From the NCBI GenBank assembly GCA_016191105.1, contig JACPPH010000004.1, positions 1,230 to 65,229 of the forward strand: DNA of 64,000 nucleotides. Direction: 5' to 3'. The position numbers and the translations under genes are program-made. The notes beneath the pieces are model-generated. The model was not told the origin of the DNA, searched no databases, and worked only from the letters and a program-made list of their open reading frames with translations. Each line of letters opens with the position of its first letter. Position 1 is the stretch's first letter. Origin of the DNA: Candidatus Saccharimonadota bacterium. Its GTDB lineage: Bacteria; Patescibacteriota; Saccharimonadia; CAILAD01; BJGX01. Below are positions 4,115 to 52,580 of the stretch, in pieces.

Positions 4115-4204
4115 TCAGAAGAGGTGCAGTAGTAAGGAGCACCCGACTCGACCCTCGTGGCCGGGTCGGAGTGACTCCCAAGCTTATAATTCGCTTGTAA
4201 GTTT

Positions 4205-4460
4205 AGGAGTTTACTGAACTCCGGCATTAAAGCAATCAGCAGCACCGGCTGGTCTAAACGCTTCTGTTTCGAGCACGAGCGCCGTCTTTGCACAGAACAG
4301 AAAGTGTAGACTAGTTGGTGTTAGCTAGATTGTGTCCATGCCGGACGGTTTTGCTACCTTTTGCCAAGACAAAAGGTAGTCGTGCACCGAAGGTGTATGA
4401 AAACAGATTCTTCGACTTTCTGCTGAGCAGGATCGCTCAGAATGACAGCAGCTATGGATT
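4205..4460 (+). repeat. Intergenic modular repeat, copy A (partial)
   Basis: Its 5' motif ctccggcattaaagcaatcagca is shared with copy B. Hairpin module X (aacgcttctgtttcgagcacgagcgccgtctttgcacagaacagaaag) is shared with copies B and C. Confidence 0.7.
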
Positions 4461-5864: not shown

Positions 5865-6965
5865 ATGAATATTCTAGCGATCGAAACTAGTTGCGATGAA
5901 ACAGCTGCTGCCGTAGTTCAGGATGGCAGCAAGGTTTTGAGTAGTGTGGTGAATTCGCAGGTCGAAATTCATGCGGCTTATGGTGGTGTGGTGCCCGAGG
6001 TGGCAGCTCGCAGTCACATCGAAGTCATCTTACCGGTGATCGAACAAGCCCTGAGCGACGCCAAAGCAACTTGGGACGACATCGATGCCATTGCCGTAAC
6101 TCGTGGCCCGGGTTTGATCGGCTCACTCTTGATCGGTGTTCTTACTGCCAAAACCTTGGCGTTTGCGAAGAACAAACCACTTATTGGGGTGAATCACATT
6201 TGGGCTCATGCTTTTGCAGCCTTCTTGACCCCCACTCCCCCAGCCTTCCCTTTCTTGGCGTTGACCGTTTCGGGCGGCCACACTACCCTTTCGCTGTATC
6301 GCGAAGACTTAACTCGAGAGGTCTTGGGCCAAACGCTCGACGATGCCGCTGGCGAGGCCTTCGACAAAGTTGCCAAGCTGATTGGCCTGCCCTATCCTGG
6401 CGGGCCTCACATATCCAAGGCAGCAGAGAATGGTGACGAGAATAAATATAAGTTTCCGATAGCCAAAACTCCAGGCAAATATGACTTTAGCTTTTCGGGT
6501 TTAAAGACCGCGGTATTACGACAAGTGCAAGAGATTACCGGCGTTAACCCAGGTAACTCTAGGTCTGTCATTCTGAACTCGAGTGAAGAATCTCAGAGAT
6601 CCTTCGGCAGGCCTCAGGATGACAATAAAGGCAAGCTCACTAAAACCTATACCCTAGACAAACAAGTCCAAGCCGATATTGCGGCTAGCTTTCAAAAAGC
6701 TGCTGTGCAGGCCTTGGTGCAAAAAACTTTGAGTGTCTATACCGTGACCCAGCCAGCCAGCATGGTGGTGGGCGGCGGTGTGGCCGCCAACAAATATTTG
6801 CGCACCAAACTCACACAGAGCCTACCTAACGCGCTTTTTTTGCCGTTTGAGTTGTGTACCGACAACGCGGCTATGATTGGCGCTATGGCCGCCAAAATGG
6901 CCGAGCACAAGCGTTACAGTTCGATCGACGAACTAACAGCCGATTCGAGTTTAGAAGAACTCTAG
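5865..6965 (+). CDS. tsaD: tRNA N6-adenosine threonylcarbamoyltransferase TsaD (Kae1/Gcp family)
   Basis: N-terminal MNILAIETSCDETAAAV, plus GPGLIGSLLIG and VSGGH motifs. Contains a roughly 40-aa hydrophilic insertion relative to typical TsaD. Confidence 0.85.
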   Translation: MNILAIETSCDETAAAVVQDGSKVLSSVVNSQVEIHAAYGGVVPEVAARSHIEVILPVIEQALSDAKATWDDIDAIAVTRGPGLIGSLLIGVLTAKTLAFAKNKPLIGVNHIWAHAFAAFLTPTPPAFPFLALTVSGGHTTLSLYREDLTREVLGQTLDDAAGEAFDKVAKLIGLPYPGGPHISKAAENGDENKYKFPIAKTPGKYDFSFSGLKTAVLRQVQEITGVNPGNSRSVILNSSEESQRSFGRPQDDNKGKLTKTYTLDKQVQADIAASFQKAAVQALVQKTLSVYTVTQPASMVVGGGVAANKYLRTKLTQSLPNALFLPFELCTDNAAMIGAMAAKMAEHKRYSSIDELTADSSLEEL

Positions 6966-6974
6966 GCGGCTACT

Positions 6975-7375
6975 TCTCCGGCATTAAAGCAATCAGCAAG
7001 TGAAAATAGTTTTAACGCTCAGTGTTCGAGGACTGTTTGATCCGCATGCCAGCGGAGAGTTCCGCAGCTTCAGCTTGAGAGCAAGCAGGCTGCCACCGGT
7101 TGTGAGCCTATGCCAGAAGCTTTGGCAACTTTCCGCTACAAAGAAGGCCAGTGCGGACAGCACAAGATTCAGCTTTCGGCCGAATGGCCGACTTACTTTT
7201 TAGCAGTAAAAAGTTAAGCAAAAACTGCCGACATGGGCTCAAATGCTGGAAACGCCAACGGCGGCTTCATTTTCTGTTCTGCCGCAGAGACGGCGCTCGT
7301 GCTCGAACAGAAGCGTTCAGCCTTGTTGACTTTCTGATTTTCGAATGTCGGAGAAAGGAAAAGCAAATTATTTAC
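6975..7375 (+). repeat. Intergenic modular repeat, copy B (full length, about 400 bp)
   Basis: Contains the head motif, core module Y (caaagaag...agattcagctttcggccgaa) and hairpin module X. Its 3' half is the reverse complement of the 5' part of copy C. Confidence 0.75.
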
Positions 7376-8150
7376 TAACGACTTGGCGGAGGCCATCAAT
7401 GCGCTTTTGCACTTCGGCCTTCTTGGCGTTGTGAGTGTCGATCTCTTTTTGCAGGCTCTGGATCTGTGTGGTCTTGTCGGCAATCTGCTCGTCGAGGCGC
7501 TTGCTCTCGCCCTCGAGCTTCTCGATCATCTGGCCCACGTTTTTGTCGACGTCTTCGACAACCTCTTCACTGCCCTCTTCTTCTGTGCTGGCCGGTTCGG
7601 TGTCAGTACTGTCCTCGTCGTCGGTTACGGTTAGGCCGTTGTCGTCTGGCTGTTCGTCGGTAGTTGCCTCGTCGCTGGCGGGTTCGGGAGAACCAATCGT
7701 TGCAGCTGGCTTGTCATCCACCTTGTCGGCTGGGCTGACTGGCATTTCGGTGGTATCGGCCTCTTCGGCTTGTACTTTATCGTCGCTGGCAGCTGGGTTA
7801 ACATCGTCGTCGCTGGCTTCGGGTACTGGAGTGGTATCATCACCCATCATCTTGGCGGCAGCGGCATCGTCGCTATTGCTGGCAGCGGCATTGGCCTCCG
7901 ACGGCTTGTATTGGGGTTCAAAAACCTGACCCATTTGTGGTGCATTGGTGCCAGCATCATCGGTTTTGATGTGTGAGATTGCCGGCGCTGGTGCGGCCGA
8001 TTGTAGTGGTACCGTGTTGGCGGCCGGATGTGGTGTAGCGCCAACTACGGCCGGGATGTCATCGGCTATCGTGGGTGTGCCATCATCAACCATCGGTGCA
8101 CGTTGATCCCACTGATCATCTATTTCGAGCGGACTATAAATATCTTTCAT
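7368..8150 (-). CDS. Acidic low-complexity protein with C-terminal coiled coil
   Basis: D/E/T/P-rich body and a C-terminal heptad-like region (QIQSLQKEIDTHNAKKAEVQKRIDGL). The ORF continues to 8225, but an RBS gggagattgg supports the ATG at 8150 (MKDIYSPLEI). Confidence 0.45.
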   Translation of the reverse strand: MKDIYSPLEIDDQWDQRAPMVDDGTPTIADDIPAVVGATPHPAANTVPLQSAAPAPAISHIKTDDAGTNAPQMGQVFEPQYKPSEANAAASNSDDAAAAKMMGDDTTPVPEASDDDVNPAASDDKVQAEEADTTEMPVSPADKVDDKPAATIGSPEPASDEATTDEQPDDNGLTVTDDEDSTDTEPASTEEEGSEEVVEDVDKNVGQMIEKLEGESKRLDEQIADKTTQIQSLQKEIDTHNAKKAEVQKRIDGLRQVVSK

Positions 8151-8225
8151 TGCGACTCCAATCTCCCCCATACTGTCGTACCTCTTTTGCTTATTGTAAA
8201 GATACCAAGGCCAACTGTCAAACAT

Positions 8226-39190: not shown

Positions 39191-39949
39191 ATGCTTATGG
39201 AGATAGCACCCCGACCTAGACCCAAAACTGATGACGAAATCGATGCTGGCATGCGCTCGAGAATTCGCAATCTGAGTCGAGTGGGGGCACTTGGCTTGGG
39301 CGCTATGGTTGCGGCCACTGGCTATCAAGCTACACATACCGAACCCACGCCAGCTAGCGAGAGGGTAGAGGCCGCCACAACCACAACCCTGGCACCAGAG
39401 ACTACTACCACGACCGAGCAACAAACCACGCCAGCCAACTGGCTGCCCGAAGGTGTAAAAGCCAAATGGCCGCTGATAGTTGAGGTTGCCAAAGGCTACC
39501 AGATTGACCCACAACTGGTAGCAATTATCATAGCCGAAGAATCGGGTGGCAACGAACACGCTGTAAACCCCAGTGGTGCCAAGGGGCTATTTCAGTTAAT
39601 GCCAGACACCGAGAAGGTTATGGCTAGCAAGCTTGGCTATACGAACTATAATATCTACGACTCCAAGACCAACCTAGAGCTTGGTACGGCACTAATCCGT
39701 TATCTCAACGACCACTACATTGCGCCAGCCGGAGTTGATCTGGAGACTCCACAAGGAATTGCTATGCTGGCTTACGGCATGAGTGGCGGCGAGGGTGATT
39801 TGCAGACATTTATTCGTACCGGCTCACTTAATTCAACCAGCTATGCTAAGCAAAACCAGGCGGTAGCCAACCTTTGGGTGAACATGTGGAGCGACCGGGG
39901 TGAGCCTACGAGCCCAACATTTGAACAACTAAGAGGAGTACAGAAGTGA
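39191..39949 (+). CDS. Lytic transglycosylase (SLT domain)
   Basis: SLT motifs ESGGN...AVNPSGAKGLFQLMPDT. N-terminal transmembrane segment and a T-rich linker. Confidence 0.75.
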   Translation: MLMEIAPRPRPKTDDEIDAGMRSRIRNLSRVGALGLGAMVAATGYQATHTEPTPASERVEAATTTTLAPETTTTTEQQTTPANWLPEGVKAKWPLIVEVAKGYQIDPQLVAIIIAEESGGNEHAVNPSGAKGLFQLMPDTEKVMASKLGYTNYNIYDSKTNLELGTALIRYLNDHYIAPAGVDLETPQGIAMLAYGMSGGEGDLQTFIRTGSLNSTSYAKQNQAVANLWVNMWSDRGEPTSPTFEQLRGVQK

Positions 39950-40125
39950 GTCGAAACAAAAAATCATCTAAGTTCTTGATAGTATTAGTCTTGATTGTGG
40001 CTGTTGCAGTCGTCGTGATCTATCTGGTGGCGAAGGCCATGTCGTCGAACACTGACTGTCAGCAGAAGCTCAAAGACGTTCAGGCTTTAAGCCAAAATGG
40101 CTCAGCTGTTTCTTGCCAAAACTAA
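39946..40125 (+). CDS. Small single-transmembrane protein (59 aa, GTG start)
   Basis: RBS aagaggag 7 nt before the GTG. The start overlaps the slt stop. Confidence 0.35.
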   Translation: MSRNKKSSKFLIVLVLIVAVAVVVIYLVAKAMSSNTDCQQKLKDVQALSQNGSAVSCQN

Positions 40126-40526
40126 GGTAGTTGGGCTATCTCCGACATTCGAAAATCAGAAAGCCAACTAGGCTGAACGCTTCTGTTCGAGCACGAGTGC
40201 CGTCTCTGTCACAGAACAGACAGTGAAGCCGCCGTTGGCGATTCTAGATTTGAGCCCATGTCGGTGAGTTTGCTTCTTTGCTCATTCAAAGAAGCCCCGT
40301 GCGGGTAGCACATAGATTCAGCTTTCGGCCTGAACGGTCGACCATTCTTTTGAAAACACCATAAAGTTGTGCAAAAGTGTTTTGGCCTGTACTACGATTC
40401 TATCAGCGCTCAGCCAGTCGCAACTTCCTGTTGCTGTGCGGTTCGCCAGCCAGCGAATTCTCGCAACAAAGAGCGTTGCTTAGTGGCTTCGCTTGCTGAT
40501 CGCAGCAACGGCCGGAAGAGCAGTTT
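40120..40526 (-). repeat. Intergenic modular repeat, copy C (full length, inverted relative to B)
   Basis: Its 5' 130 nt are the reverse complement of the 3' end of copy B. Core module Y is in the same orientation as in B. Confidence 0.75.
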
Positions 40527-41180
40527 TTAGTCGCTGCTGGCTTTTTTGGCCTCGGCAATTAACTCATTTAAATTAGTTGGGATCGGATTGTCTTGGATTA
40601 GTTTGGCCATATAGATGGTGTTGGCCACCATGTAGCGGCAGGTTTTGTTGGTGTACAGGTGCTTATCGCCACCGGCCTCTATGTAGCTGGGGCCGGGGCC
40701 GGCATTGCCCACCCAATAGCAGTCAACGTTGGGTGGCACCGTGCAGCCTAGGTGGGTGAGGTTGAATAACGTATTGGCGGCTACATCGTGAGCACCATCT
40801 TCGTTGCCAGTAACAATCACTCCGGCCACCTTGTTGTATAGCGGGAACTGGCCAGTTTTGGTATCGCCCTCGTCGTAGGTGCCGTCGAGTCGCTCCAGCA
40901 CCAACTGACTAACGCTACCGCGCACCCCAAACCAAATTGGTGTGCCAATTATCAAAATGTTGCAGTCTTTGATCTTACTTAAAATCTCGGGCCACTGATC
41001 GCCCTCGCCCTCGTTGGAACTAACACCAAACTTAACGTCGTAATCACGTACTCGCACTACTTCGGTTTCGACACCTTGAGCCTTGTAAAGCTCCACGGCC
41101 TTGTCGATTAGAGCGCCGGTGTTGCTAACTGACGGCGAAGGTTTAAGGGTGCAGTTTAAGAATAGTGCTTTTAAAGCCAT
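40527..41180 (-). CDS. Flavodoxin-like NAD(P)H-dependent oxidoreductase (FMN reductase / quinone reductase family)
   Basis: NCTLKPSP and ILIIGTPIWFG motifs. Confidence 0.6.
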   Translation of the reverse strand: MALKALFLNCTLKPSPSVSNTGALIDKAVELYKAQGVETEVVRVRDYDVKFGVSSNEGEGDQWPEILSKIKDCNILIIGTPIWFGVRGSVSQLVLERLDGTYDEGDTKTGQFPLYNKVAGVIVTGNEDGAHDVAANTLFNLTHLGCTVPPNVDCYWVGNAGPGPSYIEAGGDKHLYTNKTCRYMVANTIYMAKLIQDNPIPTNLNELIAEAKKASSD

Positions 41181-49292: not shown

Positions 49293-49826
49293 ATGAGCTT
49301 GATGGCAAGAAGCACCAAAAAGATTCAACTTATTTGGTTGGCGGTGGCTACAATTTTGGGACTTATTTTGGTAGCCGGGCTGGTAGTGATATTGGTTAAC
49401 CGCCAAAAAAAGCCCACTTACTTTAACGACAATTCGGTTAAAATTATCGACTTCGAAAGTAGCACCGGACCAGTTAGTCCACAGTATCAGTCTAGTCGGT
49501 CGCTCATAATTACACCCACCAGCTGTACCTACATTGTTACGAACTTTGGTCAAAACGCAGCTCCGGTTACCACTAATTGCCAGATAAGCCAACAAGGGTT
49601 CGAGGCTATAGCGGCTGCCTACAAAGACCAGGATGTTCAAAACAAGCTCGGTGGCAAGCAAACCCAGAATAATTTAATCGGCGGTCCAACCAATACAATT
49701 ACCATTACTACTGCCGATGGCAATCAACTGAAAGCCAACGTAACACCCGAGCTTAAGAATCAGATTAGTAGTTGGCTAAAAACCGTACAACAATATGTGC
49801 CGCAAGTTGGCGAGATGCAGTACTAG
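49293..49826 (+). CDS. Membrane-anchored hypothetical protein
   Basis: N-terminal transmembrane helix. Its last 47 nt are duplicated at 50243-50289. Confidence 0.5.
   Translation: MSLMARSTKKIQLIWLAVATILGLILVAGLVVILVNRQKKPTYFNDNSVKIIDFESSTGPVSPQYQSSRSLIITPTSCTYIVTNFGQNAAPVTTNCQISQQGFEAIAAAYKDQDVQNKLGGKQTQNNLIGGPTNTITITTADGNQLKANVTPELKNQISSWLKTVQQYVPQVGEMQY
49780..49826 (+). repeat. Direct repeat, left copy (47 bp)
   Basis: aaaccgtacaacaatatgtgccgcaagttggcgagatgcagtactag. Confidence 0.8.
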
Positions 49827-49849: not shown

Positions 49850-50170
49850 ATGTTTTTTATATGGAGTTCAGGCAAACGACGCAGGGCTCATAAGCTCAAA
49901 GAAAACCAATATGTGGTCTATGTTTATTCAAGCTTTAGACTCTTTTTTGTTTTCTCATCGGTGTCGAAAGGACAATATTACTTAATCGGCAAGGATAGAA
50001 CAAAAGACAAAGAAATAAGTTTAGACGAGGCTAATAAACTCTGTGGTGACAAACTTCCACAAAACACCTGGTGGGAACGTTATGGCTTAGCAGTATTTGT
50101 TGGAGCTATTGGGATACTTGTTATATTTGGCGTGTTATCTAGCCTCATAAGCAACCCCTATCTATACTAG
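49850..50170 (+). CDS. Small membrane protein carried on the inserted segment
   Basis: AT-rich 106-aa ORF with a C-terminal transmembrane helix. Lies between the 47-bp direct repeats. Confidence 0.35.
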   Translation: MFFIWSSGKRRRAHKLKENQYVVYVYSSFRLFFVFSSVSKGQYYLIGKDRTKDKEISLDEANKLCGDKLPQNTWWERYGLAVFVGAIGILVIFGVLSSLISNPYLY

Positions 50171-50242
50171 GGTTATTTATTCTTAGTAAATCTTAGTATC
50201 TTTTAGCTCATTGGCCATAAGGGCAGATCAATAGCTGACTGC

Positions 50243-50289
50243 AAACCGTGCAACAATATGTGCCGCAAGTTGGCGAGATGCAGTACTAG
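50243..50289 (+). repeat. Direct repeat, right copy (47 bp, one mismatch)
   Basis: aaaccgtgcaacaatatgtgccgcaagttggcgagatgcagtactag. Confidence 0.8.
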
Positions 50290-50745
50290 CTAGAGATTAT
50301 CAAACGAGCTTGTTACTATTTCTGGATTTTTGATTCCAAGTTCTTTCGTAACAAATTCAATTTTTGGATTTTTACCTTTTAGAATCAGAAAGTTCCCGAC
50401 AACCTTTATATTGTTTAAGGATATCTTCATTTGTGGATGCTTGAAGAACTTGCGACGGTTGATGATAATCCTCTTTAAGCCGAACTTTTCATCTAGGTTT
50501 GCCAGTGTTTGTTCCAAATCTTGGATAACATCCTTACTTTTTATTACGAACTTACCATGTACTTTCTCCATCACAATCAAGAAGCTACCTCTTTCATTTT
50601 CACTGATTTTTAGGATTCTATCATCGGGCTGATTGAAATATGTATAAGTGGAAGTTCTTTCTTTGCTCAGAGGGCAGCCTAAGCTTTTCAACTTTGCTTC
50701 AATCTTGTGCGGATCATTAACTCTAATTTTTAGTTCTTTTTGCAT
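50290..50745 (-). CDS. CYTH-like (triphosphate tunnel metalloenzyme) domain protein
   Basis: N-terminal ELKIRV...IEAKLK pattern and alternating beta-strand charge pattern. AT-rich. Confidence 0.45.
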   Translation of the reverse strand: MQKELKIRVNDPHKIEAKLKSLGCPLSKERTSTYTYFNQPDDRILKISENERGSFLIVMEKVHGKFVIKSKDVIQDLEQTLANLDEKFGLKRIIINRRKFFKHPQMKISLNNIKVVGNFLILKGKNPKIEFVTKELGIKNPEIVTSSFDNL

Positions 50746-52046: not shown

Positions 52047-52256
52047 TTAAGGCGTACAAAAACCAAAAGTATGGCCTGTGCAGCCGGCACTTCTTTGTAG
52101 CCAAAGAAGCAAAGCTTCCGGCATGGACGCAAAACAAGAGCGCTAGCTAACCTCTCGCTTCCAGTTCTGCGGAACTCGCTTAAACGCTCAAACAGTCCTC
52201 GAACGTGGGGCACTCAAGCTTAGCCAGCTTTCTGTTTGCTTTAATGCCGGACAGAA
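52047..52256 (-). repeat. Intergenic modular repeat, copy D (partial, inverted)
   Basis: Its reverse complement matches the copy B head (ccggcattaaagcaa, gttcgaggactgtttga, gagttccgcag, atgccagaagctttgg...caaagaag). Confidence 0.65.
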
Positions 52257-52580
52257 CTATTTTTTGTGATTGGGTTTTCCCGAAGCAACATGCCAATGTA
52301 GGTGCTTAGAGTCTTGATACTCGCCAAGGTTAGTTAGTACTTGGCATTTACCATGTTTGGCAACCACATCTTGGGCAACTGTTTGAACCACATGAAGGAT
52401 AGCTAAAAGTATATCGTCATCAGCCTCCAATAACGATTCGACATGCTTTTTCGGAACCACAACAATGTGTACCGGCCAGTGTGGCTTAGTGTGTTTAAAA
52501 GCCAGCACTTTGTCGGTTTCTAAGACCTTTTCAACCTTGGTTTTGCCGCTGAAGACTTCATCGCAGTAAAAATCATCCAT
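52257..52580 (-). CDS. HIT-family (histidine triad) protein
   Basis: HLHWHV histidine-triad motif. Confidence 0.8.
   Translation of the reverse strand: MDDFYCDEVFSGKTKVEKVLETDKVLAFKHTKPHWPVHIVVVPKKHVESLLEADDDILLAILHVVQTVAQDVVAKHGKCQVLTNLGEYQDSKHLHWHVASGKPNHKK

What the first reader, a model, noticed from the sequence alone, without database searches (positions are those of the whole stretch)
6975..7375. Four-copy, modular, GC-rich intergenic repeat family with inverted modules
The four copies are B (6975-7375), C (40120-40526), A (4205-4460) and D (52047-52256). Each fills an entire intergenic region. B and C are full length, about 400 bp. The 3' 130 nt of B, which include the hairpin module aacgcttctgttcgagcacgagcgccgtctctgc(g/a)gcagaacagaag, are the reverse complement of the 5' end of C. 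The core module (caaagaag..agattcagctttcggcc) is in the same orientation in both. So modules are shuffled or inverted relative to each other, not simply copied. A and B share an identical head motif ctccggcattaaagcaatcagca. The reverse complement of D matches the B head. All copies are more GC-rich than the surrounding backbone. This mosaic organisation resembles BIME/REP-type elements or MITE decay products, or an unrecognised structured-RNA family, in a genome type not known for them.
Basis: seen in the sequence. Interest (0 to 1): 0.75.

Follow-up and report, generated by a model that had tools for sequence, protein, structure and literature searches.

The report
Hairpin repeat family behind Saccharibacteria genes
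A small non-coding DNA element that folds into a long hairpin has been copied six times into the gaps just after genes in this tiny-genome (Saccharibacteria/TM7) bacterium; it is a new family of a well-known kind of bacterial "junk/regulatory" repeat (like ERIC, REPIN or SPRITE elements), not a shuffled modular structure.

Summary
The "shuffled or inverted modules" reading is wrong, though. The four regions hold SIX copies of ONE 125-150-nt unit, three on each strand. B and C each hold two convergent copies. A 3' tail follows each unit: a short CTTTTG..CAAAAG hairpin, often a GTGC-N5-GCAC hairpin, and in B1 and C1 a terminator. The regions are not GC-rich (0.48-0.51 against 0.49 for the window).

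The unit folds into a ~50-bp interrupted rod. Pairing is kept despite sequence change: 85.7% of cells are paired against 33-37% when partners are slid, and 19 of 28 pairs show compensatory changes. No reading frame is conserved and nothing matches in Rfam.

Orthologous spacers in relatives are empty: 46-63 nt against 402 nt after TsaD, and 44 nt against 210 nt after HIT. True copies exist at other loci in related metagenomic Saccharibacteria, and copies exchange sequence by gene conversion. Eight of nine copies point the same way as the gene just upstream, and the sense strand folds better in 9 of 10.

Best reading: a non-autonomous hairpin repeat of the ERIC/REPIN/SPRITE kind, co-transcribed as a 3'UTR RNA. 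I found no target-site duplication and no transposase. It is a new member of a known kind and of moderate interest.

The parts
4215..4360 (+). Copy A, long-hairpin unit. The closing stem is TCCGGCAT at 4220-4227 paired with ATGCCGGA at 4338-4345.
   Evidence: Covariance model R1 scores it 126 bits. MFE is -64.7 kcal/mol with z=-8.2.
4346..4440 (+). Copy A 3' tail. It has a TTTTGC tract, hairpin 2 at 4353-4379 (GCTACCTTTTG..CAAAAGGTAG), a CACC-GAA-GGTG hairpin, an AGATTC motif, and a hairpin CTGAGC..GCTCAG at 4423-4440 that has no T-run.
6972..7132 (+). Copy B1, long-hairpin unit. It starts 11 nt after the TsaD stop codon.
   Evidence: R1 scores it 108 bits. Alignments.
7129..7201 (+). It has hairpin 2 at 7129-7143, hairpin 3 GTGC-N5-GCAC at 7151-7163, and a terminator-like hairpin at 7176-7191 followed by a T-run.
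7195..7357 (-). Copy B2. The unit runs 7357-7214 and hairpin 2 runs 7214-7195. It starts 15 nt after the stop of the 285-aa gene 7368-8225(-). It is 91% identical to C1.
   Evidence: R1 scores it 130 bits..
40136..40280 (+). Copy C1, long-hairpin unit. It starts 15 nt after the stop of the annotated 59-aa gene 39946-40125.
   Evidence: R1 scores it 136 bits. MFE is -52.5 kcal/mol with z=-5.1.
40272..40351 (+). C1 3' tail. It has hairpin 2 at 40272-40295, hairpin 3 at 40299-40311, and a terminator-like hairpin at 40325-40341 followed by a T-run.
40347..40520 (-). The unit runs 40520-40372 and hairpin 2 runs 40377-40347. It starts ~10 nt after the stop of the flavodoxin-family gene 40527-41180(-).
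   Evidence: R1 scores it 88 bits. Same rod-like fold, z=-3.1. Alignment.
52069..52272 (-). Copy D with its tail. The unit runs 52256-52102, hairpin 2 runs 52109-52090 and hairpin 3 runs 52090-52078. About 204 nt here replace 24 nt of the sister genome. There is no terminator. It lies between the co-directional HIT and MgsA genes.
   Evidence: R1 scores it 145 bits. Filled-versus-empty site comparison with L023. No terminator found.

Best explanation
This is a family of small non-coding, non-autonomous repeat elements. Each element is a 125-150-nt imperfect long hairpin followed by a short 3' tail, ~165-230 nt in all. The elements have been inserted into intergenic spacers of this Candidatus Saccharibacteria genome, typically a few nucleotides after a stop codon and pointing the same way as the gene.

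Shown: there are six copies, absent from the same sites in relatives. They have conserved ends, covarying stems and no coding capacity. Copies undergo gene conversion, and the family occurs in other Saccharibacteria-like metagenome contigs.

Inferred: each copy is read through by transcription of the upstream gene, so it exists as a rod-like RNA in the 3'UTR. The closing GC-rich stem plus U-rich tail, and in full-length copies a dedicated terminator hairpin, end and/or protect the transcript, as REP, ERIC and SPRITE elements do. Selection at the RNA level keeps the pairing and favours the sense orientation.

How it spreads is not shown. The absence of a target-site duplication, and a 3' boundary that lies beyond the inverted repeat, argue against a classical cut-and-paste MITE. 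They are more compatible with mobilisation of a folded single strand (HUH/RAYT-like) or with recombination-mediated copying.
For: - Repeat family: self-BLAST E values 1e-44 to 5e-4. All 'modules' align as one unit. The covariance model finds exactly six hits at 88-145 bits and the next best hit is below 10 bits.
- Structure: the copies fold as long hairpins with z down to -8.2. Over 10 copies, 85.7% of cells are paired against 33-37% with slid partners. 19 of 28 pairs have changes on both sides, and 0 of 500 shuffles reach the observed score.
- Non-coding: stops in every frame. No Rfam match at E<=10.
- Insertion or mobility: the TsaD spacer is 55 nt in fully syntenic L014, 46 nt in L016 and 63 nt in L015, each holding a plain terminator hairpin, against 402 nt here. 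The HIT-MgsA spacer is 44 nt in colinear L023 against 210 nt here.
- Copies at unrelated loci elsewhere: L015 at 69.6 bits. L018 at 46 bits and L019 at 63 and 35 bits. L022 at 61 bits.
- Gene conversion: L022 equals the 5' half of L018 plus the 3' half of L019a.
- RNA-level and orientation evidence: the sense strand is more stable than the antisense strand in 9 of 10 copies. There are 22 G.U cells against 11 A.C cells. Eight of nine independent copies are co-oriented with the nearest upstream gene, and five of the six window copies start 5-15 nt after its stop codon, with A at ~105 nt.
- Terminator-like hairpins close B1 and C1, none is found in D between co-directional genes, and there are no promoter-like sites inside.
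- Known analogues behave this way: REPIN hairpins show compensatory changes (PMC3116915). ERIC at gene 3' ends, Correia/RNase III, SPRITE terminator-like elements and QMITE2 in 3'UTRs are described in PMC10969869.
Against: - No target-site duplication was found at any copy or at the filled/empty D junction.
- No transposase, integrase, HUH or RT gene was found among 60 window proteins. Only ~74 kb of the genome could be inspected.
- Only 11 copies are known in all. None was found in 185,579 species-representative genomes with a strict pattern, so high copy number and active mobility are unproven.
- The conserved asymmetric apical motifs (GTTCGAGGACTGTTTGA ... GAGTTCCGCAG) and the sense-orientation bias are not needed by a purely selfish palindrome, and they hint at a host function.
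- One copy (L019a) lies antisense to its neighbouring genes.
- Transcription was not observed.
Confidence: 0.6

Rival explanations
1. This is a host-beneficial cis-acting 3'UTR RNA module: a structured terminator or mRNA-stabiliser cassette. It has been duplicated behind several genes because it is useful, and is maintained by selection for its RNA function rather than by selfish mobility.
For: - Orientation is sense in 8 of 9 copies, and five of the six window copies start 5-15 nt after stop codons.
- The sense strand is more stable in 9 of 10 copies, and G.U cells outnumber A.C cells 22 to 11.
- Unpaired and apical motifs are conserved across lineages.
- B1 and C1 have terminator hairpins, and D has none where a terminator would split co-directional genes.
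- A U-rich tract follows the closing stem in most copies.
Against: - Relatives manage with a plain ~20-nt terminator hairpin at the same sites.
- The distribution among relatives is patchy: 0 copies in ~52 kb of L014, L016 and L023.
- One copy lies antisense to its neighbours.
- This genome also uses canonical terminators, for example at 11838-11815.
Confidence: 0.2
2. The structure acts at the DNA level. It would be a folded single-strand or cruciform site recognised by a recombinase, transposase or nucleoid protein (attC-like, IS200/IS605-PATE-like or REPIN-like), and the RNA would be irrelevant.
For: - The ends are the most conserved parts, at 0.81-0.82 column identity.
- The unit is a long hairpin with compensatory changes, as in REPINs (PMC3116915).
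- There is no target-site duplication, which is typical of HUH single-strand transposition.
- Copies sit next to each other and next to terminator hairpins.
Against: - The ends are not REP-type palindromes, z about 0.
- There are no attC core sites (RYYYAAC / GTTRRRY) at the ends, and the flanking genes are convergent housekeeping genes.
- There is no replication-strand bias: 3 copies on + and 3 on - while GC skew stays positive across the window.
- The sense/antisense folding asymmetry and the G.U excess favour RNA.
- No recombinase gene was seen.
Confidence: 0.12
3. This is a family of independently transcribed trans-acting small RNAs (sibling sRNAs or a protein sponge).
For: - The structure is conserved, with conserved loop motifs.
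- Some copies carry several GGA-containing motifs, for example L015.
- B1 and C1 end in terminators.
Against: - No promoter-like sites were found inside or upstream, and units start 5-15 nt after stop codons, so any promoter would have to lie inside six different coding regions.
- The GGA motifs are absent from the A, B2 and C1 subfamily.
- Relatives have empty sites.
- Copies are only ~60-90% alike, with no shared single-stranded seed.
Confidence: 0.05
4. These are chance similarity, or remnants of a duplicated protein-coding gene.
For: None beyond the presence of short spurious ORFs.
Against: - BLAST E values go down to 1e-44.
- The covariance model separates hits at 88-145 bits from background below 10 bits.
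- Stops occur in all frames, and indels are not in multiples of three.
- A protein-database search with translated copies found only one more translated copy.
Confidence: 0.01

Closest known systems
ERIC / IRU elements (enterobacterial repetitive intergenic consensus, ~127-bp imperfect palindromes)
   Same: Both are dispersed, non-coding, ~130-nt imperfect palindromes in transcribed intergenic DNA. Both occur in either orientation and are present or absent at orthologous sites between relatives. At gene 3' ends both act through the RNA (PMC10969869). By my recollection of Wilson & Sharp 2006, ERIC also shows RNA-type compensatory substitutions.
   Different: This family has a different phylum (CPR/Saccharibacteria) and an asymmetric 3' tail of small hairpins and a terminator. 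No sequence similarity is evident by eye, but the copies were not aligned to the ERIC consensus. No TA duplication was seen. Copy number is unknown.
REPINs (REP doublets forming hairpins, mobilised by RAYT transposases)
   Same: Both form a long hairpin with two highly conserved ends and a less conserved interior that shows compensatory changes. Both are extragenic and lack a target-site duplication (PMC3116915).
   Different: The ends of this unit are not themselves REP palindromes. The unit is longer and has conserved asymmetric apical motifs and a 3' tail. No RAYT gene is known for this genome, and that could not be tested.
[quoted passage not shown]
   Same: Both are a small repeat that looks like, or carries, an intrinsic terminator, and elements sit next to one another in the same spacer (PMC10969869).
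   Different: The sequence and host are unrelated. Here the terminator is a separate tail module after a ~50-bp rod.
Correia elements (Neisseria) and QMITE2 (Coxiella)
   Same: Both are ~100-200-bp elements with terminal inverted repeats that are co-transcribed with neighbouring genes. The paired ends form double-stranded RNA, which RNase III cleaves in Correia. QMITE2 lies mainly in 3'UTRs (PMC10969869).
   Different: Correia has 26-bp inverted repeats, a TA duplication, promoters and an IHF site. None of these is seen here.
Integron attC sites
   Same: Both are imperfect palindromes of ~60-140 nt placed just after a gene's stop codon in a fixed orientation. Both show structure more conserved than sequence.
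   Different: This unit has no R''/R' core sites. The flanking genes are housekeeping and convergent, not a co-directional cassette array. No integrase was found, and one pair of copies lies back to back.

Membership tests
MITE (miniature inverted-repeat transposable element) | Small (under ~500 bp), non-coding, multi-copy | tested here: met
   Six copies of 125-150 nt, ~165-230 nt with the tail. Stops in all frames.
MITE | Terminal inverted repeats | tested here: met
   TCCGGCAT pairs with ATGCCGGA perfectly over 7-8 bp, extendable imperfectly to ~17-20 bp, and the pair covaries (CCGACAT/ATGTCGG, TGGCAT/ATGCCA). However, the element's 3' boundary lies beyond the repeat.
MITE | Target-site duplication flanking the insertion | tested here: not met
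   No direct repeats flank any copy. None is seen at the D filled/empty junction against L023. Caveat: that relative is only ~75% identical at the nucleotide level.
MITE | Presence/absence at orthologous sites (evidence of insertion) | tested here: met
   The TsaD spacer is 46-63 nt in three relatives against 402 nt here. The HIT-MgsA spacer is 44 nt against 210 nt.
MITE | A parent autonomous IS or transposase with the same ends | not testable with these tools
   None was found among 60 window proteins or in the fetched loci.
REP / BIME / REPIN | Each end is a short REP palindrome, and the element is a doublet of inverted REPs | tested here: not met
   The first and last 35 nt of each copy do not fold better than shuffles, z about 0.
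REP / BIME / REPIN | Long hairpin with conserved ends and compensatory changes in the interior | tested here: met
   Compare PMC3116915.
REP / BIME / REPIN | An associated RAYT (Y1 HUH) gene in the genome | not testable with these tools
   None is present in the window. The whole genome was not available.
IS200/IS605-type palindrome-associated element | Orientation bias relative to the replication direction | tested here: not met
   There are 3 copies on + and 3 on -, while cumulative GC skew rises monotonically across the window.
Integron attC | R'' (RYYYAAC) and R' (GTTRRRY) core sites at the ends, co-directional cassette array, intI nearby | tested here: not met
   The ends read TCCGGCATT... 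and ...CCATGCCGGA. The flanking genes are convergent housekeeping genes (TsaD, HIT, MgsA, flavodoxin). No integrase was found.
Any Rfam RNA family | Covariance-model match | tested here: not met
   The gathering-threshold scan finds only 4 tRNAs. Nothing matches at E<=10 in regions B and C.
ERIC | Homology to the 127-bp ERIC consensus, in an enterobacterial or vibrio host | not tested
   No ERIC consensus was available in the tools. The host is Candidatus Saccharibacteria, so membership is implausible. The claim here is 'works like', not 'is'.
SPRITE-like terminator repeat | The repeat itself has the form of an intrinsic terminator (GC stem plus U-run) | tested here: inconclusive
   The tails of B1 and C1 carry terminator-like hairpins. 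The closing stem of A plus GTTTTGC is also flagged. D has none. In most copies the U-rich tract begins 3-4 nt after the closing stem.

The most novel reading that the evidence does not exclude
The element is a self-propagating '3'-end cassette': a structured RNA rod plus its own terminator. It installs itself in sense orientation right behind stop codons by a mechanism that leaves no target-site duplication and is not bounded by its inverted repeat. That would be a new mode of mobility, for example RNA- or single-strand-mediated. Its conserved apical motifs (GUUCGAGGACUGUUUGA / GAGUUCCGCAG) would bind a specific protein, giving a functional RNA class specific to Saccharibacteria/CPR.
Probability: 0.15. 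Interest if true: 0.6.

Novelty: new member of a known kind. Interest (0 to 1): 0.35.

Why it matters
CPR/Saccharibacteria genomes are tiny and tightly packed, and they are rarely discussed as hosts of dispersed repeats. Two targeted searches of the paper library turned up no description of such elements in them.

A hairpin repeat family expands several spacers here from ~50 nt to 200-400 nt. It sits in 3'UTRs and breaks metagenome assemblies at its copies. That is relevant to MAG assembly and binning quality, to 3'-end RNA biology in organisms with reduced RNase and terminator toolkits, and to the question of which mobile-DNA mechanisms operate in episymbionts.

The covariance model and the copy list give a direct handle for counting the family across Saccharibacteria genomes and for looking for its mobilising enzyme. 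It remains one more example of a phenomenon that is well known from Proteobacteria, Firmicutes and others.

Tried and rejected
- Rfam: the gathering scan of the whole window, and E<=10 scans on B and C, gave only tRNAs.
- Strict three-block pattern scan of 185,579 representative genomes: 12 single hits in unrelated phyla, all at or below 12.6 bits with the model, so chance. The window genome is not in that collection.
- Metagenome scan: 5 loci, of which 2 hold true members (L018, L019) and 3 are chance.
- Viral-contig scans with two patterns: only chance 17-mer hits.
- Fishing translated copies out of the protein database: one hit, leading to L022.
- Conserved ORF or decayed gene: rejected.
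- Target-site duplication: none found.
- REP-doublet architecture: rejected.
- attC: rejected on sequence and context.
- CsrA-type sponge (GGA motifs): present in some copies, absent from the A, B2 and C1 subfamily.
- K-turn at the first internal loop: no tandem G.A pairs by inspection.
- Relation to the tRNA-Ser-linked repeat, which shares the 11-mer TTCGAGCACGA: the model gives no hit there, and an 11-mer match is near chance expectation. I treat it as a separate element.
- Mobility genes: none among 60 window proteins.
- Extension into the next 10 kb of the same genome: no more copies.
- Filters-off model search of the relatives' loci: no diverged copies.

Full report
**1. Checking the observation**

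- C 40136-40264(+) matches B 7357-7228(-) at 91% over 130 nt, E=1e-44.
- C 40287-40376 matches B 7139-7223 in the same orientation at 78% over 90 nt.
- A 4254-4362 matches the same module of B and C at 77-80%.
- D 52090-52251 matches the reverse complement of B 6977-7146 at 70% over 177 nt.
- The A and B heads are identical over 23 nt.

The repeats are therefore real and far beyond chance. Two statements in the finding do not hold.
- GC content of the four regions is 0.48-0.51, against 0.49 for the whole window.
- The family is not four modular copies with shuffled parts, as section 2 shows.

**2. Anatomy**

Both the 'head' module and the 'hairpin' module start with TCCGRCATT and end with CCATGYCGG. 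When put in the same orientation they align end to end. So there is one unit of 125-150 nt.

Reading the right-hand part of C on the minus strand revealed a sixth, more diverged copy, which I call C2. A covariance model built from the six copies and run over the whole window with filters off gives these scores:
- D 52256-52102(-), 145 bits
- C1 40136-40280(+), 136 bits
- B2 7357-7214(-), 130 bits
- A 4215-4360(+), 126 bits
- B1 6972-7132(+), 108 bits
- C2 40520-40372(-), 88 bits

The next best hit is below 10 bits. The reverse strands of the copies also score below 10 bits.

B is therefore B1(+) followed by B2(-), and C is C1(+) followed by C2(-). These are two convergent copies, each behind its own convergent gene. 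This arrangement is what looked like 'inverted modules'.

Every copy is followed by a U-rich TTT(T)GC tract and a short A/U-rich hairpin, hairpin 2, of the form CTTTTG..CAAAAG with covarying variants.
- B1, C1 and D continue with GTGC-N5-GCAC, hairpin 3.
- B1 and C1 continue further with AGATTCAGCTT and a terminator-like hairpin plus T-run, at 7176-7191 and 40325-40341.
- A carries a diverged version of the whole tail, with no T-run after its last hairpin.
- D lies between the co-directional HIT and MgsA genes and has no terminator.

**3. Structure**

Each unit folds into a long interrupted hairpin of ~45-55 base pairs. MFE ranges from -44 to -67 kcal/mol and z-scores from -1.8 to -8.2.

I aligned ten copies from the window and from other sources and scored 28 consensus pairs.
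- 85.7% of cells form standard pairs, against 33-37% when the partners are slid by 1-3 columns.
- 19 pairs show changes on both sides.
- None of 500 shuffles reaches the observed covariation score.

The closing stem covaries: CCGGCAU/AUGCCGG, CCGACAU/AUGUCGG, UGGCAU/AUGCCA and CCGGCUA/UAGCCGG.

Conservation is highest at the two ends, at 0.81-0.82 column identity. It is intermediate at the apex, where the motifs GTTCGAGGACTGTTTGA and GAGTTCCGCAG flank a variable apical hairpin. It is lowest in the middle stems.

No reading frame is open across copies. There is no Rfam match at E<=10.

**4. Context and organism**

The window comes from a Candidatus Saccharibacteria (TM7, CPR) MAG. The genes flanking the copies are ordinary housekeeping genes: TsaD, ValRS, NUDIX, HIT, MgsA, an SLT-domain protein and flavodoxin-family proteins.

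Each of the six window copies points the same way as the gene just upstream. Distances from the stop codon are 11 nt for B1, 15 nt for B2, 15 nt for C1, ~10 nt for C2, 5 nt for D and ~105 nt for A. No sigma-70-like promoter is found inside the regions.

Sixty window proteins were scanned against Pfam. None is a transposase, integrase, HUH/RAYT enzyme or reverse transcriptase.

**5. Comparison with relatives**

The nearest TsaD homologues are at most 75% identical. In three relatives the spacer after TsaD is 55, 63 and 46 nt (L014, L015, L016) and contains only a plain terminator hairpin. The spacer here is 402 nt. L014 is syntenic on both sides.

A closer relative, L023, is colinear with window 41.8-59.3 kb at 73-78% nucleotide identity. 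It has a 44-nt HIT-MgsA spacer, against 210 nt here.
- Identity runs up to ...GGAAAACC in the HIT 3' end and resumes at TTTTGGTTTTTGTACGC.
- Between these points L023 has 24 nt and the window has ~204 nt: the unit, hairpin 2 and hairpin 3.
- There is no target-site duplication.
- The last HIT codons differ (NHKK* here, VGYKS* in L023).

The model finds no copy in L014, L016 or L023, about 52 kb in all. It also finds none in the next 10 kb of the same genome.

True copies exist elsewhere at unrelated loci.
- L015, a Logan contig whose TsaD is 69% identical, scores 69.6 bits.
- Two JGI metagenome contigs carry copies: L018 at 46 bits and L019 with two copies at 63 and 35 bits.
- L022 is the same locus as L018 in another sample.

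L022 equals L018 in its 5' half and L019a in its 3' half. Seven clustered differences all match L019a, against two differences in ~100 nt of flank. So copies exchange sequence by gene conversion. One of those changes passes through a G.U intermediate: U-A in L018, U.G in L022 and C-G in L019a.

The L018/L019a comparison also places the 3' boundary of the element after hairpin 2, beyond the inverted repeat. In L019 the two copies lie back to back, and one of them is antisense to both neighbouring genes. The orientation rule is therefore a bias: 8 of 9 independent copies, one-sided binomial p about 0.02.

Neither the pattern scan of representative genomes nor the viral-contig scans found anything beyond chance matches.

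**6. RNA or DNA?**

- The sense strand, co-oriented with the upstream gene, folds more stably than the antisense strand in 9 of 10 copies, by 6-16 kcal/mol.
- In the consensus pairs there are 22 G.U cells against 11 A.C cells. A.C cells would be G.U on the other strand.
- Together with the orientation bias and the sense-strand terminators, this favours selection on a transcribed RNA.

The evidence is moderate only. The copies share ancestry, and REPINs, which may act as single-stranded DNA, also show compensatory changes (PMC3116915).

**7. Interpretation**

The best-supported reading is a non-autonomous hairpin repeat of the ERIC/REPIN/Correia/SPRITE kind. It has inserted behind genes and is carried in their 3'UTRs as a rod-like RNA, with a tail that in full-length copies supplies a terminator. 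By analogy with REP, ERIC, Correia and SPRITE elements (PMC10969869), it probably ends and/or stabilises the upstream transcript, or exposes it to RNase III or RNase E.

How it spreads is unknown. Three observations argue against a classical DDE-type MITE: there is no target-site duplication, the 3' boundary lies outside the inverted repeat, and the left junction is imprecise. These leave HUH-type single-strand mobilisation or recombination-mediated copying as candidates.

Membership tests against other families gave the following.
- The strict REP-doublet architecture is not met, because the ends are not palindromic.
- attC features are absent.
- There is no replication-strand bias.

The main rival, at about 0.2, is that the module is host-beneficial and retained for its RNA function. 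The conserved asymmetric apical motifs are the strongest hint in that direction.

**8. Novelty and score**

Two targeted searches of the paper library turned up no description of such elements in Saccharibacteria/CPR. No Rfam family matches. The phenomenon itself is well known in other bacteria. I rate this a new member of a known kind, with interest 0.35. The most novel reading still open is a self-installing 3'-end RNA cassette with a new mobility mechanism and a protein-binding apex, which I put at about 0.15 probability.

Noticed in passing
window 19197-19345 (+) and 12025-11869 (-); direct repeat at 11866-11850: A second, unrelated ~150-nt structured repeat lies directly 3' of tRNA-Ser(cga) and tRNA-Ser(tga), at 78% identity over 249 nt including the tRNA. 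It opens with a 17-bp hairpin whose stem covaries between the two copies. The copy after tRNA-Ser(tga) is followed by a second copy of the tRNA 3' end, (AT)CCCACCCTCTCCGCCAG. This is an att-like duplication, as if a miniature element or a relic had integrated into the tRNA 3' end. tRNA-Ser(gct) at 12482-12390 has no such tail. No Rfam match at the gathering threshold, and no copy in the fetched loci.
   Followed up: partly
L015 260-1060 (-), between the PGM gene stop (1268) and the L015 copy of the hairpin unit: An ORF-less stretch of ~0.8-1 kb has GC 0.58-0.62, against ~0.48-0.50 around it. It folds as a chain of long near-perfect hairpins, with MFE -371 kcal/mol and z=-6.9. There is no Rfam hit at E<=1 and no similarity to the window or to other loci. 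Its nature is unknown: a large structured RNA or an array of other hairpin elements.
   Followed up: partly
window 49761-49826 and 50224-50289: This is a 66-nt direct repeat at 89% identity. The first copy is the 3' end, including the stop codon, of ORF 49293-49826. The second copy abuts the stop of ORF 50290-50745(-). Together they flank the 106-aa ORF 49850-50170, which suggests a small insertion or duplication event.
   Followed up: no
L001 end (= window 7139) and L035 end (= window ~40200): Independent Logan assemblies of the same organism (SRR12113392) break inside or next to the repeat copies. The family therefore fragments short-read assemblies of this genome.
   Followed up: yes
L019 1090-1120: The two back-to-back copies in this metagenome contig have their 5' ends ~10-20 nt apart, around a perfect palindrome TGAAAATTTTCA. 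Many copies have a pyrimidine-rich TTTTC-type leader just 5' of the closing stem.
   Followed up: no
window 4115-4218: The first ~105 nt of the spacer upstream of copy A are not part of the repeat. They contain several small hairpins, for example GGTGC..GCACC, CCGAC..GTCGG and GGAGT-G-ACTCC, of unknown significance.
   Followed up: no
window 5865-6965 (TsaD): TsaD here is 366 aa, while most close homologues are 341-350 aa. The extra length looks like a low-complexity insertion around residues ~230-260 (…NSSEESQRSFGRPQDDNKGKLTKT…). This was not examined.
   Followed up: no
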